A stretch of 64,000 nt of DNA from the NCBI GenBank assembly GCA_039621445.1, contig CP154954.1:30570395-30634394 (forward strand), read 5' to 3'. Positions within the stretch are counted from its first letter, which is position 1; the number at the start of each line of letters is the position of its first letter. The translations under genes were made by a program, and so were the position numbers. The notes under the pieces were generated by a model. That model searched no databases, had not been told where the DNA came from, and saw only the letters and a program-made list of their open reading frames with translations. Shown piece after piece: positions 2,545-59,920 of the stretch. The DNA comes from Euglena gracilis. Lineage: Eukaryota.

Positions 2545-18839
<16,295 letters not shown>

Positions 18840-31899: not shown

Positions 31900-32330
31900 T
31901 GGCTTTGGCACTGATTGCCCCCAAAAACCCTTGAACATTCCCTCCCCGGAGGGGTATGACTAACATTTTGGTCCCAGACTTTAACATTTTGCTTAATAGG
32001 GGCCACCATGGACTGGAAACACACACGGGTGCCTCCAAAAGACATTTCACTTCCCTGTTCAGTCTCAGCTTGATGATAAAAGTAAAGGTGACCTTCCAGG
32101 GTGGGTGGGGGGTGCATAGACCTGTGTTACTGAGGACACGTGGCATTTCAGGGCATCCACCAGAAAAGCTTGGTGGTGGGGCCATCTGGCCACAAACTTT
32201 TGGAATTTTGCAGTTTCTGGAGATGCAAACATGTCTGTGTCTGGTGAAATTTTTTTCGGAAAATTTTAAGAATATCCCTGAAAAGGCATGGGCACGGGGT
32301 ATAATAGCCCCGGTCCTGATCCCACATTGT
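31900..32330 (-). pseudogene. Dam-like N6-adenine MTase domain (DIRS)
   Basis: WDQDRGYY, DMFASP, FVARWPHHQAFLVDAL, PWWPLL across frameshifts. Confidence 0.8.
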
Positions 32331-38361: not shown

Positions 38362-38890
38362 AAGAAGCCAAAGGCCTTGTACTTTTTTCAGGAAGCAACA
38401 TTTTTTCGCAAAAACGCCTGATAAACGTGGGTTTGAAGTTTTGACACTATATGTCAACCCCCGTGTAAAGCCCCACATTTTTTGGCGACATTTTGACACG
38501 GTCTTTGGGAAAATTCCTCAAATAAGGGACGTGGACTTGATTTTCGCAGCCGTTCCTTGAACGGAATGTAGCCAAAGTCTCAGCACACGTGAAAGAAACT
38601 TGGAATATTCCGATTCTCTTGCAAAGAAGACACTTTTCATCACAAATTTCTACAACCCCCCAGCGCTGAATGTTTGGACGTTAATTTTTTTCCAATTCAG
38701 GGGTACAAAAAGCCTACCCGCATTTAAGGAACGGTGGAGGGGTTGTAAATTCGTTTATGTCCTGGTTTTGGTGTGATTTACCATCCCCGGTACCAAAAGA
38801 CACACTCACCGTTTGGGTGGAAACGATTATGGAGTGACTCTGAATCAAAAAAAAACGATTCCCTGAACGATTTTGTCAAACTTCTGGTGC
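38362..38890 (+). pseudogene. C5-cytosine DNA methyltransferase relic
   Basis: KALYFF/SGS (motif I), GFEVLTLYVNPRVKPHI, DLIFAAVP*TECSQ (catalytic Cys codon now TGA), RNLEYSDSLAKKTL, GYKKPTRI*G, KRFPER. Confidence 0.8.
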
Positions 38891-39083
38891 AAGGGAAACG
38901 TTTCGAGGAGACTCATGTTCAAAAGTGGGAGGGTTCTTAGGTCCCCATGACACCCCGTCATCAACGACCAGCGACCGACCAGACTTGTGCATGCACGAAA
39001 AACTTTTTTTTGACTCCAAGCAACTGAAAACGGTGAACGTTTCAGAATTGGGTTAATTAATCAAAACATCCGGTCGAACGCAA

Positions 39084-39330
39084 ATGGTGATGGCAGTTAA
39101 TGTTATGGCACCCGGTGGCTCACACAGCGTTTTGAAGGCCTCGTCCGACACAGGTGGACAAACAAATCTGGTGAGGTTGGGACTTTTTGAAAAATTGATG
39201 GTCCCCGGAAAAGAACCTTTGAGGTTGGTCACCGTGAAAGGCGATCTCCTACTGTGTGGGCGGCATGAGTTGGAGGTAAAATTGAATTTTTTGGCACAGA
39301 AAAATGAAAGGTGAAGGTTATCATTACCGC
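39084..39330 (+). pseudogene. Retropepsin aspartic protease relic
   Basis: LKASSDTGGQTNLVRLGL, homologous to ILIDTGAEANLIRQGL at ~51340. Confidence 0.8.
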
Positions 39331-41649: not shown

Positions 41650-44620
41650 ATTGACACATCTACATTGTGCTTTTTGTTCCACAGCTTCCAATCCTGCTCG
41701 ACATACCCAACAAAACTAGTTGCTGGCTCCCAGGTGTCCTCCTCGGAAACATACCCTTTCTAGCACACTTTCCAAAGGTGCATACAACTGTTTATGATGC
41801 GATGGAACATTTTATCGAATACAAAGTCATCCGTTGCAGGTCATCTGGAACGGGGATTGAAGTGAAGACACAGGACGGCTTTTGCATTCGGTGGTGCGAG
41901 GTACGGTTTGAATTCGTCCATGTGAACAACTTGAAAACCGTTGGTTAGAGCGACCTTATCGCCCACTGGTACCTAGTATTTCCACGTTTTTCCAAGGGCT
42001 GTGCCAAAGGAGGTCCAAATTGGAAGCTAGCATGCAGGTACGGCTATTACGCACCAACACACAGTCACCAGGACTGTACACAGGTGACTTGACAAAACGA
42101 TTTCCGTTTATTTGCATGTATTTTAGTAACACTATTCTGGACTGCAGAACATAGGACTTCTACTTCCGCCAACCAGGTCGCACAACTGACAATTTGTCAA
42201 AGCGGGTCTCTGGGAGGGAACATCCCCTATGGTCCATTCCGAAAACCAATTTATACGAGGAGGCAGACAAAACCAACCCTGGTAAAGTATTCATACAAAA
42301 AATGTCCTTGGTAGCACTGATATCCAGCTGTTGCGCGAGTCAGCCGGTGAAAGGTGAAGCATATTTACAACGGATTTCACAGCTGCCTCGGCTCTACCAT
42401 TGCCTTTTGGTCTGTATATAATGGAAAAACATTGCTCAATTCCGAGTAAAACGCACAAAATGGTAAACAAACGTGAGGAGATCATATAATCCTGATCACT
42501 CACAATTGCCTTCGGTAAACCCATTGAGAAAATGCATTTCTTAAAAATAAACAGTTGCCAAGGTTTGGTTGTCAACCCTGACTTCTGGCATTGACTGGCT
42601 ACAATATAACCACTCAGTCGACAAACGACAGCAAAACGTAATCGTAAATTTTGACGTATGTTCCTTGGCATGTGACTAATTACAGAAAATACATGTGGAG
42701 AGACGTAAACATGTCCTGTGGTACGGGGAGAAAGTCCATCGTACCATGGGGGTAGTCTCTGAACGGTTTCAAGGCTTGACAAATTTGAAACCGTTGTGCT
42801 ATCCGCAAACAGCGTCAGTATGATTCATTCTCAGTCACGGTTGTGCAGTACCTGTGACCCACGTAAGGAAGAAGTTTGGGGGGCCCAGGGTGACCATGTC
42901 TTTCATAACACAAAATCAAGTCATCAACCAGGTCCTTGGGGACACAATATTTGTAACCCGATTCATTACAGAAAAACCAACCGTAAGGGTGAAACAGTGT
43001 ACTTCTCCTGCACTTCGCCATTACGAAGGCTTGTCACTGGGGGAGTATATCGGGTCGTGAGTGTAATACCATTCGCGGAACAAAAGTGGGGAAGCGGACT
43101 CCGTGCAAGTAAAACTCCGCGGTCTGGACGCGCTTCCACATCGACGACATCCACGCACTGTTAAACGCAGGAAACATTCCTGAAACCGGAAAAGATTCCA
43201 AAAAGTTGTCTGCGACGTCGTTCCGACGTGTGTATTCTTCAGCTTCCGAGTTGCCGTGGAAAGTCGTGTCTCTCTCAACCAGTTTCCCAGAGTTATACCA
43301 ATGGGCCCGGCTGAGAGGATCCGCCACTTCCTGAGTGTGTCCAGGTTTATAAATCACCACTGGATGGAATTGACTTAAAACTTCATTCCATCTTCATCGC
43401 CTTCCAAACGATGACAGGGCAACCGTTCTCCCAGCTGCACGATATCCCGTGACAAATCAAGTTGTTCACTTTGTGGTTCAAAGCAAAAACACTCACCCAA
43501 GTGTCCGCGACGTAATTCCCCCGCCCGGCTATGGTCATGGCGGTAACAGTTTCATTGACCAGTGGTTACTCCGCCAACCAGAAAAAGTCGGCTTCAATAT
43601 ATCTTGTTTGGAGGATCACACCCCGGCTCCTTACAGGGGGGATGATGAGACCACGGACGAATAGTTTAGTGAATTTAGAATGGCGTTGCGCTCATTAAAT
43701 TTCATTTATTTCACCAAAAATTCCGTTGCTGGCGATGCCGCCAGTTCGGACTTGGAGTAGGGGAGCCCGATATCCGTGGGCACGGACCTCTGGGCTGATG
43801 AACAGTTACAGGTAGGACCTGAAACCCACCCACCCCTACCCATCTGTCTGAACAGTTGGTACCTGTAGTTATTTCGGGTCCCGTACTGCCCACTCCACAC
43901 AAATGTATTTCTGCCGTACCCTTCACTTTGCATACTGACCATGGAATTGTTGGTCCAAACAGAAATCTGCATTCAAAAATTTTACACCAAGGTTAAACTT
44001 CTCATTGAGAGTGGTTCTCGAATTGCACTGCTTTTTCGGTTGGGGTTCAAACTGACCCGCTCCTGACAAGCACTAAGAAACCGAGCAAAATTACAACCTC
44101 GGATTACACCAAGAGGTGCGATGGTGAGTTTGGATGTGAGCTCGAGATACTCTTGCCAATCAGTCCCAAAAATCACACACAAACCACACAAATTCAACAT
44201 TTTACCAAATTTTTTGGTTACTGATCGGGACTTCATGGTTCTGACGTAATTCTTGGAAACCCATTTTTTGCCAGTACCGATTGGTAGTGGATTGCCACTC
44301 CCACGGCTTGCACACATCACACAACTTTTCATTGCCAATAAAAACCCCATCACCGTTGGCGCTAACCACGACGACCTCCACGTTTCTAAAACGGTTATGC
44401 ACAACTGCAACGCCGTTATCAACCACACCCGCAACTGTTTTACACAGCCGGGGTACGGAAAAAAATTCCCCCCTTCCTAACGAAACACCAACATGCATTC
44501 CAGCATTCCACAATACGAAGGGCAAGCAAGTAGCTGTACCCCTGTCGTTCCACTTGGCACAAACGCCCTAATGCATGCAGTAATTACGGTGTCCAGCAGT
44601 CACAAGATACACCACAACCA
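41650..44620 (-). mobile_element. Highly decayed chromodomain Gypsy pol (protease, RNase H, integrase, chromodomain)
   Basis: YKPGHTQEVADPLSR, HGHPG, GLPKAIVSDQD..YRPKGNGRAEAAV, KGYVSEEDTWEP. Confidence 0.85.
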
Positions 44621-45377
44621 CGTTTCCCACCAGTTGTGCCGAAACCAGGCACACCGGTACACGACTCACCGGCTAATGCCGCTTACACCACTTACACGCA
44701 CTCCCGCCACACCACAAAACTTCCTTCCAATGTGTGCACTAGAGGAGAATTTCCCCCAATCTGATTTGTATTGTGGACGTTTACTTAAAAATAGAACACT
44801 AATCACAATATTGAAAACGGAATTACCAGTGAGTTGTACACATGGTTACTTCCTGCAATGTTCAGAGATACACCGAGTACTCGAGCAACGTGGATTAACC
44901 TCGTTGTTTGGAAACGCGAAACGTGTAATTTTTAATTCCAATACCACACAATACACGCAGTGCAATGTATGTCAGTTTTGATGCGGAATGGGGAAAAACA
45001 CATCATACCCACACCTCCTCAAACTATCCCTCGAGAATGTGGAGAACACCCCTCTGCTGGCACAGCCACCATGCACCTTTCTGCTTGCACAGCCACCAGA
45101 AAACATCTCTGCAACCGTGTCGACCGTCTCTGAAAATTTTTCACTGACAGGGAAGGTGAAACAACCTTTGCTCTGAAAACTTTGGCCTGGTTCTGCTGGC
45201 AGAGCTAGCAGAAAAAATCTCTGCGACGATGTTCACCGAAACTGAAAAATCCTCACTGACGAAGTCAGTGAGCGGACCTCTGCTAACCACGTTGGGTTGT
45301 CTGATTTGTCACAAACCGAAGCTAAAAATTCTTGACTGACAGAGTCAGTAAAGAAACCTCTGTGCACGATGATCACC

Positions 45378-46217
45378 TGTCCCACCACCTGGGAGCCGCC
45401 GGTCGCCTGTGCGACCGCCGAGTCAGGGAGGACCGAGGGCCCGTGGGGTCCTCGCCGTCGGGGAAAACCAGGGGCGGTCGTCTTTCCGTGGAGAGGCCTG
45501 CGTTTTCTCCGGGGGTTGGTGGGCTCAAGCCAACCCCCGTTTGTTTCACTCAGGTATTTTCCCCAACCACAGCCGGCGCGTAGGATAGTTTTTTCAAGGG
45601 TTTCTCAAAATGTGGTGAAAAAGGAAAAATCTGCCATTTGCAGTGCAACCTCACTTTTCTCTCTGAAATATCACTTTTCTCTGTTTCTATTTCTCACACT
45701 CTCTGACACTCTCTTGCACACCTTGAAGACAAAACCAACCCACAGACCAACCCATTGAATTCCGAAGTCCACAACCCCAAACCATAGATCCAAATGACAA
45801 CAAATCTGTGGGAAACCTGTGGGAGTGACTGAACGTGACGAAGATAATAACCTGGGCAAGCAGGCGAGAGGTAGGGGGTATAGGGGCGGCGGAGAGGGTG
45901 GCGATATTGTAGGCTCCTTCACTCCAACCCAAATCTCCTTCAAATACCCAATAATGCTATTGTCCAAATCCACACTTCAAAACCCACAAACGATGAAATT
46001 ATTCAAATCCAACTCCAATGTATGCCGTCTTTTCCAAAAAATGCGGAAACCCCCTCAAGTTCTTTAAAAAAAAACAGATTTTGAAGAAGCTTATTAATTT
46101 GACCCGCATCCAATTTCTTTCGCAGGTTTTTTTTAACAGTTTGGCTATTACTCGAGACTTTTGAAATTTGAGCTTTCTGGCAATTTTTTGGCTGCTGGAC
46201 AAAGCCCGCGGCCGACA
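45378..46217 (+). repeat. LTR (~840 bp)
   Basis: TGTC...GACA termini. Highly similar inverted copy at 56217-57047. Confidence 0.75.
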
Positions 46218-46249: not shown

Positions 46250-46950
46250 CCTCTTATACGTACCGGAAAAAGTACTTAAATCGTGTTTTCTCACAATCTC
46301 GTTCGCGAAGTGGATTATCCTCTTCTCCAGAGTCACCGAGAGAATACCGGTACACCGGTCATGGTCGACAGGAAACCTGTTCACCATGACAGTCCGACGG
46401 TAGGCCCTGTTCAAGTCCTCGTTGCTCCAGCGTTGGAGCCTTTCATGGTCATGCTTGAGGATCTGAACAAAGCTGCAAGCTACCCGGCTTCGGAATTTCT
46501 GGATTAAGCACGAACGCTTAGGTTTCCTTCTTGCGTACGCTCCACTTGACTTGACCTTTGCGTCGTCGCCCTGTAACTTTGTACTGAAAAAAGTCACAGG
46601 TCGGCGTTCGTGTGGCGCGTTAGGCTGGATAAAAACCCTGTCGCTATCGACTAGCACGCATGGTTTGTACGGGTGAGGACGTGGTGACCACGTTCCGCCA
46701 AAGCAAAACCTTCATTTTCTCAAGGGCTTCACACGTTGGGTCATACTCAATGACTTTGGTGTTGCAAACTGCCTGGACTTTGAGCTGTTTGGTGAGGGGT
46801 GCCCCAAGTTTGGGGAAAGTACTCATGTAAATTGTGTAATATTGGGCTAATTCCAAAGCTTTTTGAGGTGAGTAATGTTTTTGAGTACCTTTCACCAACC
46901 CTGTGGTCTGTGAATTTTCTGAGGAATATGCAGAAATCTGCTCGTTTCCC
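46250..46950 (-). mobile_element. Gypsy RT-end / RNase H fragment
   Basis: LELAQYYTIYMSTFPKLGAPLTKQLK; RRPVTFFSTKL. Confidence 0.7.
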
Positions 46951-49900
46951 GGCCATTCTGTCCGAAGTTCAGATTGTGGTTAAAATTTTCTGGTTTCTGC
47001 GACAGAAATCTGTGTTCAGAACGAAAAGGAAACTTAATTTTATGCAGCCCATTTTTCGGAACCTGTGACATCTTTACAAATAATGATGGAAGCTGTGGAA
47101 TAAAAACCTTTTTGAGGCTGCAGAAACTTTATCGTCTTAGTAATTTTCAGAAACGACACAAGAATCAGAATATGATTCTTACTCGAAGAGGGGGTTAAAG
47201 ACATGCAGAGGACCATCACGGTGGCAGGGCCTGAAAACATACAGGTTCCACTGCACAGCAGTGATGACGAACCAGAACCCCCAGCTTACGAAAGTGAAAT
47301 AGAGGAAGAAAAACAGGCTGAAAACGCAACAATTCAGAAAATGGTCATGCGAAGAACGAAAGCTGCTGGAATGTGGCCAGTACATTTTTCAGGCTTTTCA
47401 GCAAATTTCTGTGTCATCACGAGACAGCACCCCAGGGCCAGAACAAAAAAATATTTTTATCAGCCCGGCCAGAACCATTGCTGGTTAACACAGAGTTCAG
47501 AATCGCAGTCAGCACTGCCAGCTGCAGTCCTGCATCAGGTTTTTTTATCCAGCCCAGCCGGTTTCGGCTGAGATATCTGCCCCAGCCCAGATTCCTTGGC
47601 AGGTGTTTCACCCAGCCCAGCAATTTTCGGCTGATACATCTGTCCCAGCGATCATGGGGACAGCCCAGACGACTTTACAGGTTTTTCAGGCTTCCCAGAT
47701 ATTTGCGGCCAAGACATCCGTTCCATGAATGATGGGGCCAGCCCAGATGTGTGGGAAGGTTTTTCAGCCAACGTTAAGAATGTCTTCAAACACGTGCCCA
47801 GCCCAGGTTTTTCAGTCAATTAAGCCAGATTTTCCACAGGCCCAGCCACAAAATTTACAGCCAAATACCAGTTTTTCTGCAGGAACTCGGTCCAAAAACG
47901 CGGGAAATAGGCAAGATGTGAAACGGAATCTGGGAATACCCAATCTGATGATGATTGGAACAACAGGGGTGAAGAAATCAGTTGTAAAATTGAATGTTTG
48001 CATGGCAGAGTTTTGGGGCAGGATGTAAAAAATCCTGGTGGGTGAGGCAGAAAAGCAGGCTAAATCAGGCATTGGCCATGTCACAGGGGCAGACACTGAA
48101 TCTGGCATAAATGTTCAGCGAATGTCTGATCACATTGCCATGGTAAAACTTCACATTCATGCTAAACTCAGTGCAACCGGAAACAACTTGCTTTCGCAGT
48201 TTCAGAAAAACGGTGAAATGGTGCAAAGTCTGGCCCAATGCCAAAGGCATTTGTTGAGTGTGGAAATGGAACGGCATTTTGCTTAAAAAGTGAAGAAAGT
48301 GGGGGATGGAGTTCACACGTGTTTTGAGACCCAGGTTGAGGGGTTGAGAAAAAATCAGAGGTACTTTTCTCAGAAGCTTTCGATTTTGGAAAAAATCCGT
48401 GGGGGAAATGCATGTGGTGGTACAGCAAGTGAAGGAAAAGGAAAAACATCAGGAAATTGCTGTTAATCAGGTCAAAAATGCAGTCGGTGGGCTAATCTCT
48501 GGTCTGGAGGGACGCATTGGGATTATTTTTCAGCAATGAATCGATTTGGGGGCGACTGAGTGTGCCTATTTTCAGGCACAGGCTGAGAATCAGCGGCAAC
48601 ACATCAACTGATGAAAACTGGGGTAGCTCCAAAATGTTCCGGACAGCCAAAAGACTGTATTTAATTCGTGCAGGATTGGGAGCAGTATTTCAGGAAGTTG
48701 GTTACTTTGCAAAATGGACATTTGTCTGATTCAATCAAAGTTCCAGCTTTTTACAACGACTGTGGATGAAATAAATCGAAAGGAGTTGCAATTCCGAATG
48801 GAATTGAAGGGAAAACGTCTTTTGAGGAGGAATTTGACAGGCTTGAAGGCAATTTGCAGGATTTAGCACACCTGTTCCAGAAAAACGTGGTATGATGTAA
48901 ACCTCGTAAACCAAGGGACAAGCACCGTACAGGATTGGCAGGACTTTGTCATAAATTTTAAAATGGCCTGGAGACACGTGAAAAGTGCCATTGACGATGA
49001 GGCAGAAAGCCTGGTCAAGGGGAAACAGCCAAATTTCATTTTGTATTGGGTCGCCGATGAGGAGGAATAGAAATCAACGTGTGGACCGAAAGTCAAAATG
49101 TACCCCAGAGTGCCAGTAACCGGGGAAAACATTATTTGTGCCTTGGAACGTGTCACTGGGGAAAAGCCCTGCATGGTTTTCAAATTTTCACCGCTGGAGT
49201 TCGAAGTCTTTTTGACGAATACCACAATTTGCGACAAACTGAAAGAGGGCAGTGGGAAACCAATCACAGGCACGGATAAAAGGATTAAAATTGGTGAGGA
49301 ACAGCCAAAAATGGGAGCTGAAGAAATTTTCCTTTTTTTTAGCGAAAACTGTCATCCAGGGATAATCAAGTCATGCTACGCAGTTCCAATGAGCCAAATG
49401 GGTCCGGAAACCAGAGGGCCAGGTCTGCCAAGGCAGACCGGGCGAAGGGGTCCAGGACATCCTCCCCAGCACGGTCATCAAAGGGGGGTGAAACACCGGC
49501 AAAACCGTCCGTTGGAAAACAGATTCACCGTTGGCAGCTCCAGCGACCAATGCAAACGTGTACCCCCCAGTGCAAAATCCAGTGGCGGTGATTCGATCAC
49601 AGTCATTTTCATCCCCCCCCTGCCATCTCAAATTAGCAATGGGGGGGATGCAGAAACGATTTTGCGTGGAATCCCAATGCCAATGCCAATTCCCAGGGAC
49701 ATCAGTGGTGGCACTCAAATCAAAAGAATCTTAATTCACAGTCTGGTGGTCGAAAAGGCAAAGAAAAGGGGAAAGGAAACACTTCATGGGAAAAGGAAAC
49801 AACGGAAATGACTGGTCTTGAGGAAAGGGCCATGACGGTAGAAAAGACAAAGGCAAAGGAAGGGGAAAAGGAAACCGATTCTAGGATAGCCGGGGTGGAC

Positions 49901-50149
49901 CGTTGGTTACGCGAGCCGCCCCGGGCTCACATACCCAGCCCCACACAAAAACATACGCAAATCCCAGGTTGCAAGAAAAAAAACGTGTGATTAAAAACGA
50001 AGGCACGATGAAAAAACTGCCATCCCGGGAGATGTCTGCCCAAGGTGTGTGCACTGTGTCGGATGCGCGCGTGCGTGACGGACAAATTTGTGGCTCGGCC
50101 CGAACCTGTAAAAAAACAGACCTCATAAGAGTTCGTAAGCCTTCCGTAA

Positions 50150-50745
50150 AGATTAGAGCTTTATAATTTTTTTTGCGGTAAGGGCTCGGTTGGGGATTGC
50201 CTAAGACAGCAAGGGTTTAAAGTAATTTCAGTGGACATAAACTTCAGATCTAACCCAGCCCACTGTGCGAATATTTTGGAGTGGAGATATTGGAAGTCCC
50301 CCCAGGATTTTTTCAGATCATCGCTGCAGGGGTGCCTTGTACAGAATACAGCTTGGCCAAAAAATTGGGAGTCTGGAATTTGGAGAGGGCAGATCGGCTG
50401 CTCAAAAAAATTCTGGAAATTCTGGAACATTTCAAACCAAAGTTGTGGTGGATTGAGAATACTCGTTATGGACTTTTGTGGAAAAGACGCTTTGTTCAAA
50501 ATCTGACTTTTTTCGATGATGATAATTGTCAATTTTCAGATTGGCGATATCAAAAACCCACCCGAAACTGGGGGAGCTAAAATATGATCATGCTACAAAA
50601 CAAACTTTGCGATGTCCAGACCTGCCCGAATTGAATTGCTGTGGGGAGGAGTCACCGTGAAAATTTCGGAGGGTATGGAATGACAGTTGGTCCCCAGAAA
50701 AAATGGAGGACGCCCAAACAATTGGTGGAGAATTTGCTAATCGCG
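50150..50745 (+). pseudogene. C5-cytosine DNA methyltransferase domain
   Basis: IRAL*FFCGKGSVG (I), KVISVDIN (II), IIAAGVPCTEYSLAK (IV), WWIENT (VI), CQFSDWRYQKPTRNWG (VIII), KWRTPKQLVENLL (X). Confidence 0.9.
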
Positions 50746-50764
50746 CTGGAACAAAAAAAGGGGA

Positions 50765-51165
50765 TATCGTAGGGAGGATTATGCCGTTAGTAAAGTTTGC
50801 AAGGTGGAAATTGAGAAGAAATTTCGGGTTAAGGCCGACCGGAATTGTTTTGCAACCAGCCAAAATACCAGGAGTGAAAGGTTTTACGTGGAGGATTATA
50901 ATGCAATGGAAAAGGAGTGGGGGATGGAGGAAGCGTTGCGGATGAACCCCCCTGCACTTTGTTGCCTGATGTGGCTGAACACTTGCAAAATTCCAATTGT
51001 CGGCCAATTTGCATTTGCCCAGACTGGAATAGGAGGTTGTTGAAAAATCTGGAGGCTTTGGCCGTCAAAAAGATTTTTTTTCCAAGGGGACAAAATTGTT
51101 TGAGGTTGTCAGGAAGATTTTGAGGGGAAACCAGTGGGGGGTGTGGGCCTTGTTGATCGGTAGAA
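50765..51165 (+). pseudogene. Dam-like N6-adenine DNA methyltransferase domain
   Basis: EDYAV..NCFATSQNTR..NAMEKEWGMEEALRMNPP/CTLLPDVAEHL..ICICPDWNRR. Aligns motif by motif with the DIRS MT at 28650-29010. Confidence 0.8.
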
Positions 51166-51279
51166 GGCAACCCTCCCAGGGGGGGGGCAGTTCCAGGGAA
51201 GAAAAATTTGATTCGGCTGAAAACAAGCATGTTAAAGGGGACAAAAACTCGGGGAAGAGCAAAGAAACTTGGAGAGGAC

Positions 51280-51620
51280 AGACAACTTCTGTTAAAAACC
51301 CAAATCTGGTTGACCAATGGGGAGGAGAAAACATCCCCAATTTTGATTGACACGGGGGCTGAGGCAAACCTCATTCGACAAGGGTTGATAAGGGAACACC
51401 TAATGTATCCTGCTAAGGAATCGCTTGGGTTTGAAACGGCCAATGGGAAAACTTTGGCGGGGGGGAGCAGATGTGCTAAGGTGCAAATGATCCTTCAGCG
51501 AAATTGGAATCAGGAAAGGGAACCTGGGTGTGTGTAATATGAGGTTTAATTTTATGAGTCAAATATAAAATTTGACGCAATTATTTCCTATCTTTGGTTG
51601 GCGGAGGCAAAACTCAGAAT
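51280..51620 (+). pseudogene. Retropepsin aspartic protease
   Basis: ILIDTGAEANLIRQGL..GFETANGKTLAGG. Confidence 0.9.
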
Positions 51621-51979
51621 ATTTCACACACCACAAGATGTAGGTGAAAGACAGCCCCGAAATGATTCTCTTGCGGTCCGCAAAAAATTAGGATGACACA
51701 AGTTTTTCAGTGGACAACGTGACTGTGGCGGACGGGTCTTTGTTTGGGTTGCAAAGTTTGGTCTTTGCTTGCCTTTGGAGGGGTTGGACCAGGTCCTCGA
51801 TTTGCAATTTTTGAGTGATGAGTACCTAAGGGAGGTTGCCACAAGTCCCGAAGGAAGTGAAACCCCAGTGCAGGTTAACAACCGAAAGATAATTGCAAGG
51901 GAGGGGGAGGACCAAAAAGAGGATTAACGGGTAGTCAAGTTGAGGTAACAAGTTTTTCAAGATTTCAGGGGAACGGTAT

Positions 51980-53390
51980 TTTGGTCATCGCCATTTACAG
52001 ACCCCCCCCCCCCGAAATAGGGCAATATGGTTATGCACACATACCGTTAACGAAGGGGGCAAAGCCCAACAGGCAGAGGTCTTTTTTCATGCATGGTGAG
52101 AGGAAACAGACACTTGAAAAAAATCGCCCAAGACTGGTTTTACAAAAAAATACATTGAGCCGGCCTCAGCCAAGGGTTCTGAATGGCTGTCACAGACTTT
52201 TCCAGTACCAAAAAAATCCAAGTATTTTCATTGGAGGCGGCTGGTTGACCTCAGGGGCCCAAACAGCCCAACAAGGCGATGCAACTACCCCCTACCCAAA
52301 ATTGAATACATTTTGGTCAAACATGATGCAAACCAAAATGCTTTCGATTAACGATTTGAAGCAAGCTTTTCACCAACAACCTCCACACCCAGAACGTCGA
52401 CCCATAACGTGTTATTTCACCCCCAAAGGCATTTTTCAACGAAGTGTGAATGGGTTTGACAAAAGCCCCCCAGCAATTTCAGCAAATGATCGATGACCGT
52501 TTGACGCCATTAAGGGATATCGCCACAGCGTACATAGATGGGATGCTGGTGGGAACAACAGTCGGGGAAGGGGAGGACCTGGTTGTGGTTGGGGCACATG
52601 AAAAAGATTTGAGGAGGGTGTTGGAGGTGCTCAAAACAGAACTTTCGGTGGCTGATGAATTCAAAGCCAAATTTTTAATTGAGGAGGTTGACTTTTGTGT
52701 GCAAAATTTAAGGAAATGGGACGAGGAGACCAACACCGGGTAAACTACAAGCGATCGAAAAGTGGGAGATTCCAAAAACAATTCCAGCTTTGAGAACCTT
52801 TTTAGGATTCGTAAATTATTACAATGCATACATTCACATGTATGCCGAAGTAGCAGCCAGGTTGCAAGACAAGTTGAAAGTCCCAAGAGAGATTTTAACG
52901 AAAGGAAGTCGAAAACCTTTGGAATTTGATGGGTAAGATTTAAAAGCTTTTCAGGAGCTGAAAAAAAAGATGTGTTGCGGCCTAATGTTGCAACGGGTAG
53001 ACCCAAATAGACCCTCTGTGCTAAGGGTAGATGCCAGTGGGTACGCAGTGGGGGCAACGTTAGAGCAAATGAATTAAGGGAGAGGAAGGCCCACAGCCCA
53101 AAATTTTATTGAGAAAACAACTGTGCCTTTTATGTCGCAAAAATTGACCGAGGGGCAAAGAAAATGGACCCCCAGTTAGAGACGTACGCCATAATATTGG
53201 CACTACAAAGATGGGAGAGTTGGATTGGATTGGAACCCGTTTTGGTTTTAACCGACCACCAAAGTTTCGAGTCATGGACAAGGGAAGTCCTGGACACACC
53301 CAGTGGTCCGGTTGGGAGAACGGCGAGATGGTAAAAAAAAAACCATATCCGATATCCTTAGTCAGTGGGCATACCCAGCCTCACAAGCAG
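51980..53390 (+). pseudogene. Reverse transcriptase + RNase H (Gypsy)
   Basis: NDLKQAFHQ, MGLTKAPQQFQ..AYIDGMLV, LRVDASGYAVGATLEQ, LTDHQS. Confidence 0.92.
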
Positions 53391-53949
53391 TAAGGGACAT
53401 AAATAAGCACGGGTCGACCGAAGACAAGGATGAAATTGAAAATTTTATCCGGGAGGAAAAAGAACTGGAAAAACACTGTTTGGAGATAAGAATCAAAAAC
53501 CAGCCCAATTTTTCGTAATGCCTGGATACAGGGGGGGACAACCCGTAGTGGCAAAAACGTAACACCTGAGGAGGAAAAAGAAGAGTGCACAAGGAGGGGA
53601 ACCAAGGGTGAGTACACCCAGGAGGAAAACAAAACACCCCTGTGGACACCCACTCACAAGGGCCCAGGATACAGAGGAGTTCATTTTTGGATGAGAAAGT
53701 GGGGGGAGGCTACCCTGTCCCGGAGACGGCTGAAAGTTCGAGGAGGGACACTCGTATGGAAATGGGGGACGCCCTGCCAAGTACGACCCCTAAGAATATT
53801 ATGCCCGTATGGGAGCGCGACTGGGGGCAAGCATATTCCCAATGCACCACATGGAAAGTAAAATGGGTAGCTACCAAAGGTGGTTGAATTTGGCCAAAGA
53901 ACTTCAAAGTGCTAAAAGGCCAATTTTTTTTTCAAGGAAACGTTGTGTG

Positions 53950-55270
53950 TGCCTGAAAGTTTTCAACGCTTCGTGATTCAAGAAAATAACGAGATTTTGG
54001 GGCATGTTGGCACTGAAAAAGTTTGAAAAACACATGGCACCTCGTTTTTTTGGGCTGATGAAAAGGCTGCAAAGAACTCAATCAAAATTGCAGCAAAAAT
54101 TGAACCAAGCGAGTGTGAGGGGGGAGAGTTTGAAAGGACCGATCGAGTCCACACCCATACCCCCTGCACCAATGACAAGTGTTGCCATCGATTTGTTTTG
54201 AATGCCGAGGGTTTTAAACGATGGGGGGGAGTATGACACCCTAGCATTTGTGTGGATAGGCATTCGGGATGGATTGTGGGGGTTGCATGCAGGGACATGT
54301 GGTTGACTGGTGCCAAGTTGGATAAGGAAATGGTGACAAATCGGTGGAGGCCTTTTGGGGTTCCTTCGGTCATTTCAAGTGACCAAGGGAGCCATTTCAA
54401 AAGCACTTGGTGGAAAACAAATGTGTGCACTTTTGGGGATTAGGTTGGCATATTCCAATGCATACCACCACCAAGCAAACGGGAAGGCTGAGAGAGCCGG
54501 ACAACAGGTAATGGAGGCGTTCAGGAAATTGTATGTGGAGGAAAAAAATAATTTGGTAGAGGCTTTACCCAAGCTTTAGACCGAATTAAAGATGTAACGG
54601 TGGAAAGCGGGTACAGCCCATGTGAAATGTTGCATGGAAAGGAACGACCATTGGCAGGGGTACCCTACCAACCACCCAAAGAATGTAAGTATCCGATGGA
54701 TGTTTTCCGTAGGACGCAAGACATTGATGGGGGGTGGCTAGGATACTCAACAAAAAGCATGAGGAGGAGGTGGCAAGGATAAATAAGCCGCGGAAAAAAA
54801 TGGACCCCTAAAGACGGGGACGACGGTTTGGTGTAGGAGACCCGAGGTGTCGAGGGTGCTTGACTCTGGGTGGGTGGGACCTGGGGTCGTGAAGGGTAGA
54901 GAAGGGGAACGGAGTTATGTGATTGAGATGAAACCTGGGGTGAACACAAAAGCCCGTAGGAGTTTTTTGAATGAATATCGGGATCCCCAAGTTAAATAGA
55001 AGGTGATGCCTCTGTTTTATTATGAACGGACCGAAAAAGAAGAAGAGGCATTACCTGACGAGTGGGAGGTAAAGAAAATTACAAGGCGATGGAAAGGAAA
55101 AGATGGAAAATGGGAATTTTTGACAAAGTGGGTCGGAAATGAGGACGAGGAGGAAACTGGGGACGCAGCTGGAAGTTTCATTCACAGGTTCAGAGGGGAG
55201 TTTGTAAAATATAGTCGTGAGAAAAAAGTGAGAATAGATATAATGTCCGAAATACAAATTGACGGTGGGC
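53950..55270 (+). pseudogene. Integrase + chromodomain
   Basis: MTSVAIDLF, DRHSGWIV, FGVPSVISSDQGSHF, YHHQANGKAERA, DEWEVKKI..WEFLTKWVG. Confidence 0.93.
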
Positions 55271-55333
55271 CGGAGGCTCTAAACTGATCGGCCCTGGATA
55301 AAGCTCTACGGTGAGCCAAATGGGAAGGCAAAG

Positions 55334-55588
55334 TGCTGTAGAAATTCAAAAACCGGATTTGTACGTCAGTGTGGGTGTCAGTGCACGCACATACACATGA
55401 GCGTGTGAATGAGAGAATATACAGATGCAGGACGCTGCCAAGGAGAATGGAGAAATATAGAAAAAGGCCCCGCATGGCGGCCGGGAGTGCGAAGTTGCAC
55501 CATAGTATATTCGTTGCTCATCTGCAATATTTGTCGTCCGCTGTCCCTCTTCCCTTCACTCCCACTACCTTACCCCGCGTTGCCGTCA
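55334..55588 (+). repeat. Putative 3' LTR of the MTase-bearing Gypsy
   Basis: Purine tract gggaaggcaaag then TG...gccgtCA; end motif shared with the 840-bp LTRs. Confidence 0.5.
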
Positions 55589-56216
55589 CGTTTCCCTACA
55601 AGGTGGTGTTGTATGGATTCCTTCTCAAAGTATTGGGATATGTGGATGATGAGGAACACCTTGTGGTTTGGAGTCAATGGTCGTCACAAAATGAGACCGG
55701 GACAGAGTTTTTGGCCAAAACTCTCCCGGCCCGAGGAGGGGCGGGGGCGCTTTAATTTTTGACCAAAGATCCCCCGACCTGAGGAGGAGGCACTTAAATT
55801 TTTTACAAAAATCCCCCGACCGAGGAGGAGGGGGGGGGTTGCGCTTGAAGTTTTACAAAAATCTGCCCGGCCCGAGGAGGGGGGGGGCTCCAACTGAATT
55901 TTTCCAGAAAAAACTCGGCCTGTTGGAAAACGGGGCGAGGGCAGATTTTGGTGAAGACCCTCATGCACCCCATGAGAAGCTGAGGGGGGGGGCAACCAAA
56001 TATTTGTTGGTTGCTGAACCGAACCTTTCCCAACGGGTTGAAGGCACTTGAAAGCCACAGTCACTGAACATTGTTTCCCGTTTGTTATTTCAAGGGAGAA
56101 TAGGTGTGGGATATAGGCTTTGGGTGAAACAGTGCAAAATACAGGATTTCCCCACTCTTTGTTGAGAACGGGGGGGGAGAATTTGTGGTGTCCGAACAAG
56201 GTCGCAAGGGAGAGGG

Positions 56217-57047
56217 TGACGGCCGCCGGCATTCGGCGGCAGCAAAAAAAATTGCCCGAAAGCTCAAATTTCACTGTCGCGGATAACACTGTCGCGATAG
56301 AAATCGGATATGGGTCAAATTAAAAATAAGCTTCCCCAAATTGTGTTTTTTTTTAAAGAACTTGAGGGGGTGTCCGCATTGTTTGGCAAAGATGGCAGAC
56401 ATTGGAATTGCATTTGGATAATTTCATCGTTGGTGGTTTTGAAGGATGGATTTGGACAATAGCATTATTGGGTATTTGAAGGATATGTGGGTTGGAGTGA
56501 AGTAGCCTACAATATCGCCACCCTTTCCGCCGCCCATATACCCCCTACCTCTCGCCTGCTTGCCCCAGGTTGTTTTTCTCGTCACATTCAGTCACTCCCA
56601 CAGGTTTCCCACAGATTTGGTGTCATTTTGAGCTATGGGTTGTGGTTGTTGCCTTCGGAATTCAATGGGTTGGTCTGTGGGTAGGTTTTGTCCCCAGGGT
56701 GTGCAAGAGAGTGTGAGAGAGTGTGAGATATGGAAAGAGAGAAAGGTGATATTTCAGAGAGAAAAGTGAGATTGCATTGCAAATGGCAGATTTTTCCTTT
56801 TCACCACATTTTGAGAAACCCTTGAAAAAACGATCCTACGCGCCGGCTGTGGTTGGGGAAAATACCTGAGTGAAACAAACGGGGGTTGGCTTGAGCCCAC
56901 CAACCCCCGGAGAAAGCGCAGGCTCCACCCCGGAAACACTACCCCCCGGCTGTTGGTGGTTTTCCACGACGGCGAGGACCCTGCGCCGTCGGCCGACCAT
57001 GACTCGGCGGTCGCGGAGGCGACCGGCGGCTCCCAGGTGGTGGGACC
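56217..57047 (-). repeat. LTR, inverted copy of 45378-46217
   Basis: Long shared blocks such as ggtgggctcaagccaacccccgtttgtttcactcaggtattttccccaaccacagccggcgcgtagga. Confidence 0.8.
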
Positions 57048-57049
57048 GT

Positions 57050-59920
57050 TGAACAAATCACGCGACTGGTACTTGTTTGGTGGGGCCGCTTGGACTTTGA
57101 ATACTATTTCTTACTTCAGGATTTGGACATTCGCGAGACATATGTCCCGATTTGTTGCTATAAAAACCATGCTTTGTCCGTGGATTGGTCCAAATAACGT
57201 AGATATATCGCTTTTGACACCGTGTTGGTGATCGTCGTGACGTTGGTTATTTTTCAAGGCATTGACCAGACCAACAGGTATCCCGTGGTGAGTTTCGTTT
57301 GAATAGCAGATTGTATTAGTCCTCCAACTTGTGTGAGCTTCAGATGTTTTGACGCATAATTCCAACGATTGTCCAGAGTCATTTCATGCCCCGCGAAATC
57401 CTCGCGATGGAGATCCTTGGACGGATGTTTTGAAATGGATCAAAAACTGCGTGAAATTCTTCACGCCTTAGTTGCTCGCTACGATCATCACCTTTAGCAG
57501 AATTTCCAAACCATTTTGCCTGCCAAAGGTCAAGGGACTTCCATTTGCATCCTTGCGGGTGGAATATTGCCGCCACTTCTTTTCCAGGGTTATCCTGGCT
57601 ACTAATCTCGAACTTGTTGAAGCGTATTGTTCAACAAAGTCATCGAACGCCACCCTATATCGTATCACCCACTGCTGTGCGCGTCCTTTCTACTGCCTTG
57701 ACAGGTATTTGATGAATCACATCTCGCAAGGGTTGTTGCGCGGTAACAACCGTTGTGTGCAATCCGTGATTTTCGCGTTCAACGTATTCACTCAGTTACC
57801 TTTCTTTCTGTACGTGAGGTGGTGAGGTGTGTGTTGGCTTGTTACCTAAATCTGCTACGAAATGTACGTTCAGAGCTTCCCTTTTGCCCCGAAGAAGCCC
57901 TTACGCTTTCGCCGGGTAGGCAGTTGCTTAGGTAAGGAAAAATCTTTAGAGTAACAAAACCATTTGCCCCAATTTGCCTGATTGTTCACAAAACACAAAG
58001 CAAGCTGACTTTGAATGATTTTTCTTAGCCGTTCGGTTCAGGGAGCTTTTCTCCATTTTGAGCGACGGGATTGAGAACTTCAGAAAGACAAAGGAACAGT
58101 ACTGCCTGTGAGGAAAAGAGACCACGCAAGCACGTGTGATACGTGTCCCGCCATCACATAGGATCTGCCACGGTTGTCTGGCTTCCTCAAACACAGCCGT
58201 CAGGTTGTTACAGATGCAGCCTCTGCAGGGTTGTCACATAGTTTGGATCGTGCCTGCCGCACACCTCTCCTGCCGAATTGGCTCCGGAGAATCATGAATC
58301 ACGGCATGACACGGAAAGACAGGCTTGGGGACGTATTACGACCCCATACAGTACGCGCGGAATGTGTGCCGCATATGCCTGTACAGTTCCAACCGGGGAA
58401 TTCTCCACAGGTCTCTTATTATCACGCAGGGATATTTTTTTTATCTGGCTAGCCACTCTGCCCATGATGTTTATGGGAGAAGCTGCAATGGTTCCTCGAG
58501 GAAGGAGCGAGTGCAACCAACACTGCAGTTCCTTACTCGATGGGTTCGGGACTGGGTACCACCATGTTTCTAATACGAAACGCCAGAAACCTGGGAGGTG
58601 GATCGACTCGCACCTGAACCCCCACTCAAATGATCCTGGTGGGATACCCCTTGGACCCCCGCTATGATTACTGGCGGTTGAAAAGAGTTTAATGCCGAAA
58701 CGGAATCATATGCTCTCAGTTGAGGTAATTGCCTTCATTTCAGTTTTCCTCTCTCCCACAGAATCGCTACACCGGTAGCGTAACCCGATAAACAGGCCTG
58801 CCTGGATACACCCAGGTCTGACCCCCCCCTCCCCGTTCTCGGCCCCTTTTAGTGACTACACCGATGCCTCACCTCACACCCAATCAATGTGCGGACGGAA
58901 ACAGTCTGCACGAGGTTAGCACCTATTATCTCGCCGTGTACTTTTTGTTGATGTGAAGACCCTGGCAGCCAGTAAATGCTGGCAAGCCGCCAAGTGGCAC
59001 ACAGCGCACAGCACACAGCACTCATGACGTAATAATAGGCCAAAGTTGTCACATTTCGGCCTTAAAGCTCCATAAGGCTGCCAGACAGTAAAAATTGTTT
59101 TTGGCCTAAGCCAGTCTCTTATTACTCACCACTTTCTCCACACCCCTGCAAAGATGTCGCCGGCAATCGGTTCTGCAAGTACGCTTTTTTGTCCTAGTTC
59201 CGTTAAAACCGCCCAGGCGCCATATCCGGGTATGACCATATGAGCTAACGCCCCCCCCCCCTCCTTCGACAGCTCTCCCTATGGGTTTCCAGCAAATACG
59301 CTAGACCAACACCGTGTGCCTTTTGCACACCCGGATGGATGGCATGCTTTGAAAAGAAACCTGCCAGCCCTTTTTCACGCAGTGATCTTCTCTACACTCC
59401 TAAGCTGATACAGTTAATAAGCAACCGCAAAAACGGGCTTTCCTTTTTGCACGTTTTTGGTTTTGTGTTGCACCTTTGTGGAGAAAAGAGATCCCGTGTT
59501 CCAGAAAGCATAATCTAACCGGGACTGTGACTGAAATCCTGACAGGACCTGGGACGACCTAGTCCAGGATGAAAAAGGGCATATCCCTGGGAAGGAGATG
59601 TGTACCAGGCACGATCCAAGCTCTGAGGAAAATCTGTAGAGTCTGGATCTGTCACAATCTGGCGGCTGTGTATGAGCACAGCTTGACCATCGTGGCAGAT
59701 CCTATGGGATGTCGCTACACATATCACACGTGCTCGAGTGATACCTTTTCCTTGCACGCAGTATTCTTTTACACCACACACGTTCTCGATTTCGTCACTG
59801 AAGAGAAAACATCTCCCTGAAGCGGACGGTCAAGGAAAATACATTATCAAACACTATCTTGTTCTTTGCCCTGCAAAGAGGAAATTGGGACAAATGGCCT
59901 TTGTTACCCAGATGACTTTT
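57050..59920. mobile_element. Very old Gypsy pol fragments in both orientations
   Basis: 57960-58255 (-) and 59605-59900 (+) are diverged inverted homologues with integrase N-terminal character. Confidence 0.5.

What the first reader, a model, noticed from the sequence alone, without database searches (positions are those of the whole stretch)
50150..51165. Gypsy retrotransposon carrying tandem C5-cytosine AND N6-adenine DNA methyltransferases
Seen: between gag and protease of a colinear chromodomain Gypsy lie two MTase domains. The first is a compact C5-MTase (FCGKGS, PCTEYS, WWIEN, QKPTR). Immediately after it is a Dam-like domain (DY..CFAT..N..NAM..W..NPP..CPDW) that aligns with the DIRS MT domains in this same window. 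Known: C5-MTase-bearing retrotransposons are described from dinoflagellates (Symbiodinium) and the charophyte Klebsormidium, and Dam-like domains are typical of DIRS elements. Inference: a euglenid LTR element with two DNA-writing enzymes plus a chromodomain reader may self-methylate its cDNA, for host mimicry or self-regulation. The short PCTEYS-type MTase looks to me more like giant-virus/bacterial C5-MTases than DNMT1/3. I cannot check whether this exact architecture has been published.
Basis: partly seen in the sequence, partly recalled or inferred. Interest (0 to 1): 0.93.

Follow-up and report, generated by a model that had tools for sequence, protein, structure and literature searches.

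The report
Dead copy of a double-methyltransferase retrotransposon
This is a decayed copy of a very abundant Gypsy-type jumping gene that carries both a cytosine and an adenine DNA methyltransferase, a real and striking design that a 2026 preprint has already described in Euglena.

Summary
Window 50150-50763 encodes a compact C5-cytosine methyltransferase (Pfam PF00145). Window 50765-51240 encodes a Dam-like N6-adenine methyltransferase (PF05869). Both lie directly upstream of protease, RT, RNase H, integrase and a chromodomain-like tail. The whole stretch is colinear with a 2513-aa environmental polyprotein.

The tandem is not a one-off insertion. Fourteen uninterrupted environmental ORFs carry the same C5-then-Dam order, one of them running on into PR and RT. 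In two DNA runs of the same organism the methyltransferase region is as highly repeated as the PR and RT regions.

This copy is dead. The methyltransferase module has 3 frameshifts and 4 in-frame stops, and three otherwise invariant C5 residues are replaced. No LTR pair or gag could be found. No RNA read matches it at 99% identity or more.

The architecture is already in print as "EpiLTRs" of Euglena gracilis and Cymbomonas (bioRxiv 10.64898/2026.05.21.726589, May 2026).

Two points go beyond what I read there:
- The C5 module belongs to a roughly 200-aa subfamily. Its nearest non-transposon relatives are standalone genes on viral contigs, some labelled as giant-virus genomes, and in Bacillus phages.
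- The two methyltransferase modules occur in up to seven different orders around PR and RT among environmental relatives.

Function remains untested.

The parts
50150..50763 (+). C5-cytosine DNA methyltransferase domain (compact, about 200 aa), pseudogenised. There is a frameshift near 50296-50302, with stops at 50578 (TAA) and 50632 (TGA).
   Evidence: Pfam PF00145, E 1.7e-6. tblastn of the intact relative P0151 residues 176-378 gives 46-49% identity. Stops and motifs were mapped. Conserved positions P275, Y296 and G303 (P0151 numbering) are T, N and R in this copy.
50765..51240 (+). Dam-like N6-adenine methyltransferase domain, pseudogenised. There are frameshifts near 50763 and 50950 (right after NPP), with stops at 51121 and 51154.
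   Evidence: Pfam PF05869, E 6.5e-6. The relatives' Dam HMM matches in three pieces. P0151 residues 382-533 align at 36-44% identity.
51253..51624 (+). Retroviral-type aspartic protease (DTGA at 51349-51360), with stops at 51535 and 51547.
   Evidence: Pfam gag-asp_proteas, E 2.4e-4. P0082 residues 889-1012 align at 35% identity. Positions.
51883..52927 (+). Reverse transcriptase, frameshifted. The YxDD box reads YIDG.
   Evidence: tblastn of P0082, P0038 and P0097 and of P0159. Pfam RVT_1 is only weak, E 0.043. The YIDG reading is from the translation.
52928..53479 (+). RNase H region.
   Evidence: P0082 residues 1376-1677 align to 52640-53479 at 38% identity, E 1e-47. P0082's RT_RNaseH domains lie at 1472-1619.
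53807..54728 (+). Integrase (rve-type), decayed.
   Evidence: P0082 residues 1932-2243 align here. Pfam rve_3 is only faint, E 0.13.
55006..55260 (+). Chromodomain-like C-terminal tail, degenerate.
   Evidence: BLASTP against P0082 residues 2339-2419, E 8e-13. That range spans P0082's Pfam Chromo at 2358-2392. There is no Pfam hit in the window copy itself.
46250..50149 (+). Upstream part of the same high-copy repeat, function not identified. It is the expected place of gag and the 5' end. It includes the ORF at 49071-49811.
   Evidence: Summed contig depth here is 24.7k-81k in X1, similar to the pol region. No Pfam family was found, no PDB relative and no CCHC knuckle.
45370..46217 (.). Left arm of an inverted repeat of about 850 bp that brackets the element. 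It is probably not part of the element.
   Evidence: blastn gives 86% identity over 861 columns against 57055-56217. See also repeat finder I1-I4 and I7.
56217..57055 (.). Right arm of the inverted repeat.
   Evidence: Repeat depth falls after about 55300 (7.5k, 11.5k, 18k and 4.5k in the bins between 55300 and 56747) and rises again at 56748-57100.

Best explanation
Window 50150-51240 is the decayed DNMT-DAM module of a dead copy of a very high-copy Ty3/Gypsy chromovirus-like retrotransposon. It is of the kind published in 2026 as 'EpiLTR'.

In intact relatives the two methyltransferases are fused head to tail, with a linker of about 5-15 residues. They are translated in the same ORF as protease and RT, in the order C5-MTase, Dam-like MTase, PR, RT, RNase H, integrase, chromodomain.

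Shown here:
- the identity and order of the domains;
- membership of the family polyprotein;
- high copy number of the methyltransferase region;
- the pseudogene state of this copy;
- a predicted C5-MTase fold, with catalytic motifs intact in relatives.

Inferred, not shown:
- In active copies the enzymes are made as part of the polyprotein and act on the element's own DNA, either the cDNA or pre-integration complex or the fresh insertion.
- The Dam-like enzyme would add 6mA, a mark of permissive chromatin in hosts with AMT1.
- The C5 enzyme would add 5mC in a host whose CG sites are methylated almost by default.
- The chromodomain would steer integration.

I put about 0.9 on the identity and architecture, and about 0.3 on any specific self-methylation mechanism. 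The confidence given for this explanation (0.85) is for identity, architecture and pseudogene state.
For: Domains:
- Pfam hits on window fragments.
- P0082 (2513 aa) carries C5, RVT_1, RNase H, rve and Chromo. It is colinear with window 50150-55260 in 8 tblastn pieces.

The tandem is conserved:
- P0151 (538 aa, uninterrupted) has PF00145 at E 1.3e-6 and PF05869 at E 1.1e-11. It aligns colinearly to 50165-51240.
- P0159 carries C5-DAM-PR-RT in one ORF and matches 50380-52008 at 44% identity over 564 columns, E 3.8e-123.
- 14 of the 34 Dam-bearing proteins among the 221 examined have the C5-DAM(-PR-RT) order.

Same organism:
- 7456 contigs (X1) and 11045 contigs (X2) lie on 46250-57100 at 85% identity or more.
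- Summed depth in the C5/Dam bins is 39.5k-51.8k in X1, against 44k-73k in the PR/RT bins and 16-30 for exact single-copy contigs.
- One 86%-identical contig (X1 record 5, 50639-50870) bridges the C5/Dam junction.

Dead copy:
- 3 frameshifts and 4 stops in the module, and 2 stops in PR.
- P275T, Y296N and G303R at positions invariant or near-invariant in 64 TE-linked sequences.
- 0 of 184 (X18) and 0 of 132 (X22) laid RNA reads are 99% alike or more.

Fold:
- The AF2 model of P0151 has pLDDT 92-98 over residues 170-350.
- Foldseek matches DNMT3A/3B, DNMT1, MET1 and M.HhaI at E about 1e-8 to 1e-7.

Literature:
- The preprint describes E. gracilis LTR elements with chromodomain, DAM and DNMT. 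It reports more 6mA-methylated DAM-LTR insertions in E. gracilis.
- The C5 domain groups next to Cymbomonas proteins, as the preprint reports.
Against: - No LTR pair was found by four searches. An inverted repeat of about 850 bp brackets the region instead.
- No gag family and no CCHC knuckle were found upstream.
- In this copy the chromodomain, RT and integrase are seen mainly through homology to P0082, not through Pfam.
- The intact relatives come from unnamed environmental assemblies, not from this genome. No whole genome was available.
- Function is untested. The preprint's heterologous expression of eukaryotic DAMs in dam-deficient E. coli gave no 6mA increase.
- LTR expression in E. gracilis was low or undetectable, in line with the few RNA reads here.
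Confidence: 0.85

Rival explanations
1. One-off nested or chimeric insertion. Under this reading a methyltransferase gene fragment, for example from a DIRS element or an endogenous giant-virus region, landed inside one Gypsy copy, so the tandem is not part of the family.
For: - The window holds DIRS-like MT stretches.
- The preprint itself warns of nested insertions and assembly artefacts in E. gracilis.
- The copy is riddled with frameshifts.
Against: - The same C5-Dam junction occurs in uninterrupted ORFs of 14 relatives, and P0159 runs on into PR and RT.
- Repeat depth across the module equals that of PR and RT, and a paralogous contig bridges the junction.
- The window's C5 domain sits inside the clade of transposon-linked C5 domains, 64 rows, SH-aLRT 99.
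Confidence: 0.04
2. A DIRS/LTR hybrid whose true termini are the inverted repeats of about 850 bp at 45370-46217 and 56217-57055. That would make it a Gypsy-type pol carried between DIRS-style inverted terminal repeats.
For: - The inverted repeat brackets the element with 86% identity over 861 columns.
- No direct LTRs were found.
- The Dam domain is of DIRS type (and the preprint).
- The preprint notes mixed DIRS/LTR clades in Euglena.
Against: - The element has an rve-type integrase, and no tyrosine recombinase was seen between the arms.
- Family repeat depth stops near 55300, about 900 bp before the right arm. The arm itself has uneven depth: 18k, 4.5k and 67k.
- Only this one pair of arms occurs in the window.
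Confidence: 0.06
3. The module is a domesticated or host methyltransferase gene pair that merely lies beside transposon debris.
For: E. gracilis has heavy 5mC and some 6mA, so host enzymes must exist (preprint).
Against: - The reading frame is destroyed.
- The sequence is present at roughly a thousand times single-copy depth.
- No RNA read matches this copy at 99% or more.
- Relatives are fused to PR and RT.
Confidence: 0.01

Closest known systems
EpiLTRs of Euglena gracilis (Fernandez-Moreno et al., bioRxiv 10.64898/2026.05.21.726589, 22 May 2026). I read the abstract, passages of section 8, and sections 7, 9, 10 and 12.
   Same: It is an LTR-type (Ty3/Gypsy-like) element with a chromodomain plus both a DAM (PF05869) and a DNMT (PF00145) domain. 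The DNMT is related to that of Cymbomonas elements. Expression is low.
   Different: - The main text I read does not give the domain order in Euglena. Here it is C5, then Dam, then PR.
- The paper places the DNMT as sister to fungal DNMT4. Here the nearest non-TE relatives are standalone viral or phage-type enzymes of about 200 aa.
- This copy is dead and has no detectable LTRs.
- Supplementary figures, which may show the architectures and the DNMT tree, could not be seen.
Cymbomonas tetramitiformis EpiLTR / DAM-chromovirus (same preprint).
   Same: It combines chromodomain, DAM and DNMT. The named Cymbomonas proteins P0213, P0215 and P0216 match the C5 domain at 36-41% identity. They fall in the sister clade of the main TE clade.
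   Different: In Cymbomonas the DNMT is appended to the 3' end of pol. The environmental protein P0217 has INT-C5-DAM. Here the methyltransferases lie upstream of PR.
DNMT-bearing retrotransposons of Symbiodiniaceae and Klebsormidium (de Mendoza et al. 2018, PMC5890265). I saw only the search listing and abstract. The details below come from the 2026 preprint's text.
   Same: A retrotransposon encodes its own C5 methyltransferase.
   Different: According to the preprint those carry DNMT3-type or orphan DNMTs in DIRS, LINE or Gypsy backbones and have no Dam partner. This C5 enzyme is a different, compact subfamily.
DIRS retrotransposon Dam-like MT domain.
   Same: Same Pfam family (PF05869) with an NPP catalytic triplet. 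A DIRS-like MT stretch in the same window at 28583-29149(-) matches the relatives' Dam HMM at E 3e-6.
   Different: The host element has an rve integrase and PR-RT-RH-INT order, not a tyrosine recombinase.
Standalone compact C5 methyltransferases of viral contigs and Bacillus (Herelleviridae) phages.
   Same: - Full-length colinear similarity over about 200 aa: 30-43% identity to 58 IMG/VR loci and 27-28% to the 25 listed of 33 phage records.
- Conserved in every row of all groups, the phages included: PC Cys, ENP glutamate and proline (Asn in all but 6 transposon-linked rows), Cys297 and Cys324. Cys329 is conserved in all but 3 of 120 rows. All.
   Different: Those are free ORFs of 195-307 aa with no PR, RT, INT or Dam nearby. 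Here the domain is fused into a retrotransposon polyprotein.

Membership tests
EpiLTR (chromodomain + DAM + DNMT LTR retrotransposon, 2026 preprint) | DNMT domain (PF00145) encoded in the element | tested here: met
   E 1.7e-6, 28.1 bits against a cut-off of 22. Searches agree.
EpiLTR (chromodomain + DAM + DNMT LTR retrotransposon, 2026 preprint) | DAM domain (PF05869) encoded in the same element | tested here: met
   26.4 bits for a fragment, against a cut-off of 28.1. The relatives' HMM covers the whole domain. The intact relative P0151 scores 45.1 bits.
EpiLTR (chromodomain + DAM + DNMT LTR retrotransposon, 2026 preprint) | Chromodomain | tested here: inconclusive
   No Pfam hit in this copy. 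It is homologous to P0082's Pfam-supported chromodomain, E 8e-13. By my reading of that alignment the conserved Trp of 'QWEP' is lost.
EpiLTR (chromodomain + DAM + DNMT LTR retrotransposon, 2026 preprint) | Host is Euglena gracilis (or Cymbomonas) | not testable with these tools
   The organism is coded as 'organism A' and no whole genome is held.
Ty3/Gypsy chromovirus LTR retrotransposon | pol order PR-RT-RNase H-INT with a C-terminal chromodomain | tested here: met
   Colinear tblastn with P0082 over 51253-55260.
Ty3/Gypsy chromovirus LTR retrotransposon | Direct long terminal repeats | tested here: not met
   None was found by the repeat finder, blastn or word-7 blastn. The copy may be truncated or too decayed.
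Ty3/Gypsy chromovirus LTR retrotransposon | gag, often with a CCHC knuckle, upstream of pol | tested here: not met
   No Pfam family was found in five upstream ORFs, no CCHC and no PDB relative. Relatives' N-termini are low-complexity and unalignable.
C5 DNA methyltransferase (PF00145) | Motifs I (FxGxG), IV (PC), VI (ENx) and VIII, in order, with an AdoMet-MTase fold | tested here: met
   Motifs mapped. The fold of the intact relative is supported. In this copy the frame is broken and ENP reads ENT.
DNMT4/RID-related clade (the preprint's placement of the EpiLTR DNMT) | Branches as sister to fungal DNMT4 in a DNMT tree | not tested
   No DNMT4 sequence could be obtained through the tools. The best PDB sequence match is DNMT1, E 5e-4, over motifs I-VI only.
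DIRS retrotransposon | Tyrosine recombinase instead of a DDE integrase | tested here: not met
   An rve-type integrase region aligns at 53807-54728. No recombinase was seen between the repeat arms.

The most novel reading that the evidence does not exclude
The DNMT module of these retrotransposons was not derived from a cellular eukaryotic DNMT. It was captured once from the compact C5 methyltransferases of about 200 aa found in giant viruses or other dsDNA viruses. After that capture, the DNMT and DIRS-derived DAM modules were repeatedly reshuffled around PR and RT. Up to seven orders are seen within a clade of chromovirus-like elements that is widespread in aquatic metagenomes, well beyond Euglena and Cymbomonas.
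Probability: 0.4. Interest if true: 0.55.

Novelty: already known. Interest (0 to 1): 0.4.

Why it matters
A mobile element that encodes writers for both 5mC and 6mA, plus a chromatin reader, is a rare case of a parasite carrying its own epigenetic toolkit. That point was made in print in May 2026, so this locus mainly confirms it independently from raw sequence.

- The domain order, C5 then Dam then PR.
- Evidence that the module is carried by roughly a thousand copy-equivalents in the host. This estimate is rough.
- A link between the DNMT module and standalone viral C5 methyltransferases. If it holds, it changes the origin story from 'DNMT4-like' to 'virus-derived'.
- Evidence that the two modules have been shuffled many times.

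This particular copy is dead and cannot be assayed itself.

Tried and rejected
- No whole genome is held for the window, so a genome-wide copy census was impossible.
- Earlier notes of this scan returned nothing.
- Word-indexed protein searches for longer relatives found nothing, both for the Dam fragment and for the C5 fragment.
- Rfam found no family in the window.
- No RNA holder is listed for the stretch.
- LTR searches were negative, as was the CCHC search.
- Upstream ORFs had no Pfam family and no PDB relative.
- Ten ORFs elsewhere in the window were put through Pfam, among them DIRS-like ORFs I had picked by eye. Only one was recognised: rve at 42294-42824(-), E 8.1e-4. A plain tblastn of the window's Dam fragment found only itself. 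The custom Dam HMM was needed to link it to 28583-29149(-).
- Foldseek confirmed the C5-MTase fold but did not discriminate between DNMT3, DNMT1, MET1 and M.HhaI. The Dam part of the model was only moderately confident, pLDDT 45-88, and I did not search with it separately.
- The scan of prokaryote species genomes matched 17 patterns but found no relative. Because it depends on one pattern, this is weak evidence of absence.
- A guess at which 10 ORFs of the low-GC loci were capsid genes found only one, L014:7081-8514, Capsid_N at E 2.6e-5.
- The nested-insertion, host-gene and DIRS-hybrid readings were considered and set aside, as described under rivals.
Full report
**What is there**

On the + strand the window encodes, in order (all through frameshifts):
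- a C5-cytosine methyltransferase, 50150-50763;
- a Dam-like N6-adenine methyltransferase, 50765-51240;
- an aspartic protease, 51253-51624;
- RT, 51883-52927;
- RNase H, about 52928-53479;
- an rve-type integrase, 53807-54728;
- a chromodomain-like tail, 55006-55260.

Pfam on single-frame fragments gave the following:
- PF00145: E 1.7e-6, 28.1 bits, cut-off 22.
- PF05869: E 6.5e-6, 26.4 bits, cut-off 28.1.
- gag-asp_proteas: E 2.4e-4.
- RVT_1: weak, E 0.043.

A phmmer search of the 108-aa C5 fragment against 1.84 billion representative proteins returned 884 hits at E<=1e-3 and 297 at E<=1e-10.

**Is it one element?**

Among those hits, P0082 (2513 aa) carries DNA_methylase, RVT_1, RT_RNaseH, rve and Chromo by Pfam. 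It aligns colinearly with window 50150-55260 in eight tblastn pieces. The chromodomain of the window copy is not seen by Pfam. It does align to the P0082 stretch that holds its Pfam Chromo domain, E 8e-13.

P0082 itself has no Dam domain between C5 and PR. The tandem was therefore tested separately.

**Is the C5-Dam tandem part of the polyprotein?**

P0151 (538 aa, no stop) has PF00145 at E 1.3e-6 followed by PF05869 at E 1.1e-11. It aligns to window 50165-51240 at 36-49% identity. That alignment also shows the window's frame changes: +2, +1, +2, +1.

- 34 carry a Dam domain.
- 14 of these have the order C5-DAM, C5-DAM-PR or C5-DAM-PR-RT.
- P0159 has all four in one ORF. It matches 50380-52008 at 44% identity over 564 columns, E 3.8e-123.

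Two DNA runs of the same organism label were laid on 46250-57100 at 85% identity or more:
- 7456 and 11045 assembled contigs lay on the stretch.
- Summed depth in the C5/Dam bins was 39.5k-51.8k in X1, against 44k-73k in the PR/RT bins.
- Exact single-copy contigs had depth 16-30.
- One contig at about 86% identity bridges the C5/Dam junction.

The tool warns that summed depth is not a copy number. I therefore read it only as 'the module is as repeated as the rest of pol, on the order of a thousand-fold'. The nested one-off reading is rejected.

**State of this copy**

- The methyltransferase module has three frameshifts, near 50296-50302, 50763 and 50950.
- It has four in-frame stops, at 50578, 50632, 51121 and 51154. 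PR has two more.
- Three positions that are invariant or nearly so in the 64 transposon-linked C5 sequences are replaced here: P275T (turning ENP into ENT), Y296N and G303R.
- Of 184 and 132 RNA reads laid from two runs, none is 99% alike or more, and only 3 and 2 are 95-99% alike. The reads come from other family members at low level.
- No direct LTR pair was found.
- No gag family, CCHC knuckle or PDB relative was found upstream.
- Family-level repeat depth runs from at least 46250 to about 55300 and then drops.
- An inverted repeat of about 850 bp (45370-46217 against 56217-57055, 86% identity) brackets the region. Its uneven depth, and the gap between it and the end of the family repeat, argue that it is not the element's terminus.

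**The Dam domain and DIRS**

An HMM built from six relatives' Dam domains finds four places in the window:
- the window's own domain;
- 28583-29149(-), in two frames, E 3e-6 and 2.2e-4;
- 32068-32265(-), weak, E 0.017;
- 19310-19816(+), weak, E 0.18.

By eye these three lie in DIRS-like debris. Pfam does not recognise them.

**What kind of C5 enzyme is it?**

The domain is only about 200 aa. The AF2 model of P0151 is very confident over it, with pLDDT 92-98 over residues 170-350. Foldseek matches DNMT3A/3B, DNMT1, MET1 and M.HhaI at E about 1e-8 to 1e-7 without discriminating between them. By sequence, the best PDB match is DNMT1, E 5e-4, over motifs I-VI only.

Full-length relatives are standalone genes:
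- Of the best 80 of 567 confirmed metagenome loci, only L001-L003 have PR or RT beside the C5.
- For the 52 other metagenome loci with a full C5 domain, the stop-to-stop frame holding it is 195-325 aa, and 195-276 aa in 49 of them. The contigs have 23-59% GC.
- 118 ORFs from the 17 long low-GC loci include Capsid_N (2), Pox_A32 (1), D5_N (1), PriCT_2 (2), DUF5906 (2), Prim-Pol, rve, SET and N6_N4_Mtase (3). One capsid gene lies 5.3 kb from the C5 gene in L014.
- 58 IMG/VR viral contigs encode relatives at 30-43% identity, all without PR, RT, INT or Dam. Three record names (L084, L105, L138) carry the tag GVMAG. I read that tag, from recall, as giant-virus metagenome-assembled genomes.
- 33 phage records, mostly Bacillus Herelleviridae, match over the whole domain. 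The 25 listed are 27-28% identical.
- The ESM Atlas's nearest clusters are viral proteins of 210-222 aa.

Across 120 aligned domains, the phage, standalone and transposon-linked groups all share the PC cysteine, the ENP glutamate and proline, Cys297, Cys324 and Thr308 (one Cymbomonas row has Pro). Six transposon-linked rows have ETP in place of ENP. Cys329 and Lys306 are shared by all but 3 and 1 of the rows.

**Trees**

In an LG+G4 quick tree of 163 rows rooted on the two phage sequences:
- The transposon-linked domains form one clade of 64 rows with SH-aLRT 99. The window sits among C5-DAM proteins.
- The sister of that clade holds the three Cymbomonas proteins plus P0217 and P0220.
- Successive outgroups are standalone and IMG/VR sequences, with SH-aLRT 87-89.
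- An AU test does not reject a single clade of all 68 transposon-linked rows, p 0.498.

The direction 'virus to transposon' depends on the phage root and on moderate supports, so I hold it at about 0.4. I could not test the preprint's 'sister to DNMT4' placement, because no DNMT4 sequence was obtainable.

**Module shuffling**

Besides C5-DAM-PR-RT, the fetched proteins show these orders:
- DAM-C5(-PR): 9
- PR-DAM-C5(-RT): 4
- DAM-PR-C5(-RT): 2
- PR-C5-DAM: 2
- C5-PR-DAM: 1
- INT-C5-DAM: 1

Many are fragments. All are automatic gene calls on environmental contigs, so read-through across nested elements is not excluded. In the tree the orders cluster by clade.

**Literature**

The full-text search for 'EpiLTR' finds one relevant paper: Fernandez-Moreno et al., bioRxiv 10.64898/2026.05.21.726589, 22 May 2026. 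From the passages and sections 7, 9, 10 and 12 that I read, it reports the following:
- E. gracilis and Cymbomonas LTR elements combine chromodomain, DAM and DNMT.
- Their DNMTs form one group, sister to DNMT4.
- The DAM comes from DIRS.
- E. gracilis shows more 6mA-methylated DAM-LTR insertions.
- LTR expression in Euglena is low.
- Heterologous assays of DAM in E. coli were negative.

Supplements were closed, so I do not know whether the domain order or viral relatives are shown there. For de Mendoza et al. 2018 (PMC5890265) I saw only the listing and abstract. From Sarre et al. 2025 (PMC12344493) I read passages, and from the Euglena GEVE preprint I read passages.

**Verdict**

The copy is a fossil, and the architecture is already published. 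Added value lies in the viral affinity of the DNMT module and in the module permutations. Both are leads that need the full genome and a broader DNMT tree.

Noticed in passing
window 38219-39308 (+): A second, also decayed, C5-MTase-bearing element. The C5 domain (38219-38739) is followed after about 170 bp by a protease (38910-39308), with no room for a Dam domain. A Dam-less C5-PR relative therefore sits 11 kb from the C5-Dam-PR copy.
   Followed up: partly
window 25785-26498 (-): An integrase C-terminus plus chromodomain fragment of a related element. It is 40% identical to P0082 residues 2174-2413 (E 1e-48) and 64% identical at DNA level to 54520-55193.
   Followed up: partly
window 28583-29149 (-), 32068-32265 (-), 19310-19816 (+), 30490-31209 (-): DIRS-like debris. 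The first stretch matches the Dam HMM at E 3e-6. The next two match weakly. The last looks by eye like a tyrosine-recombinase C-terminus, but Pfam reports nothing.
   Followed up: partly
window 45370-46217 and 56217-57055: An inverted repeat of about 850 bp, 86% identical, brackets the element at exactly 10 kb spacing of its inner ends. Its origin is unexplained.
   Followed up: partly
window 42294-42824 (-) and 43241-43405 (-): Pieces of another retroelement on the minus strand: rve at E 8.1e-4 and an RNase H-like match to P0038.
   Followed up: no
window 55300-56750: RNA reads from two runs end abruptly with consistent loose ends at 55578, 56355, 56389-56392 and 56555-56559. This suggests spliced or otherwise joined transcripts of something other than the retrotransposon just downstream of it.
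   Followed up: no
P0028 (environmental relative, DAM-PR-C5-RT): This family member is deposited as a hypothetical protein of the carnivorous plant Genlisea aurea. It may be a contaminant from trapped protists or a plant copy. I did not examine this.
   Followed up: no
L015 5419-5949 (-) and 7886-8392 (+): A 59% GC contig carries two C5 copies in opposite orientation with no PR or RT detected nearby. Its C5 falls in the Cymbomonas-type clade.
   Followed up: no
window 7700-8400: A long (CA/TG)n-type microsatellite gives open frames of His-Thr and Cys-Val repeats in several frames.
   Followed up: no
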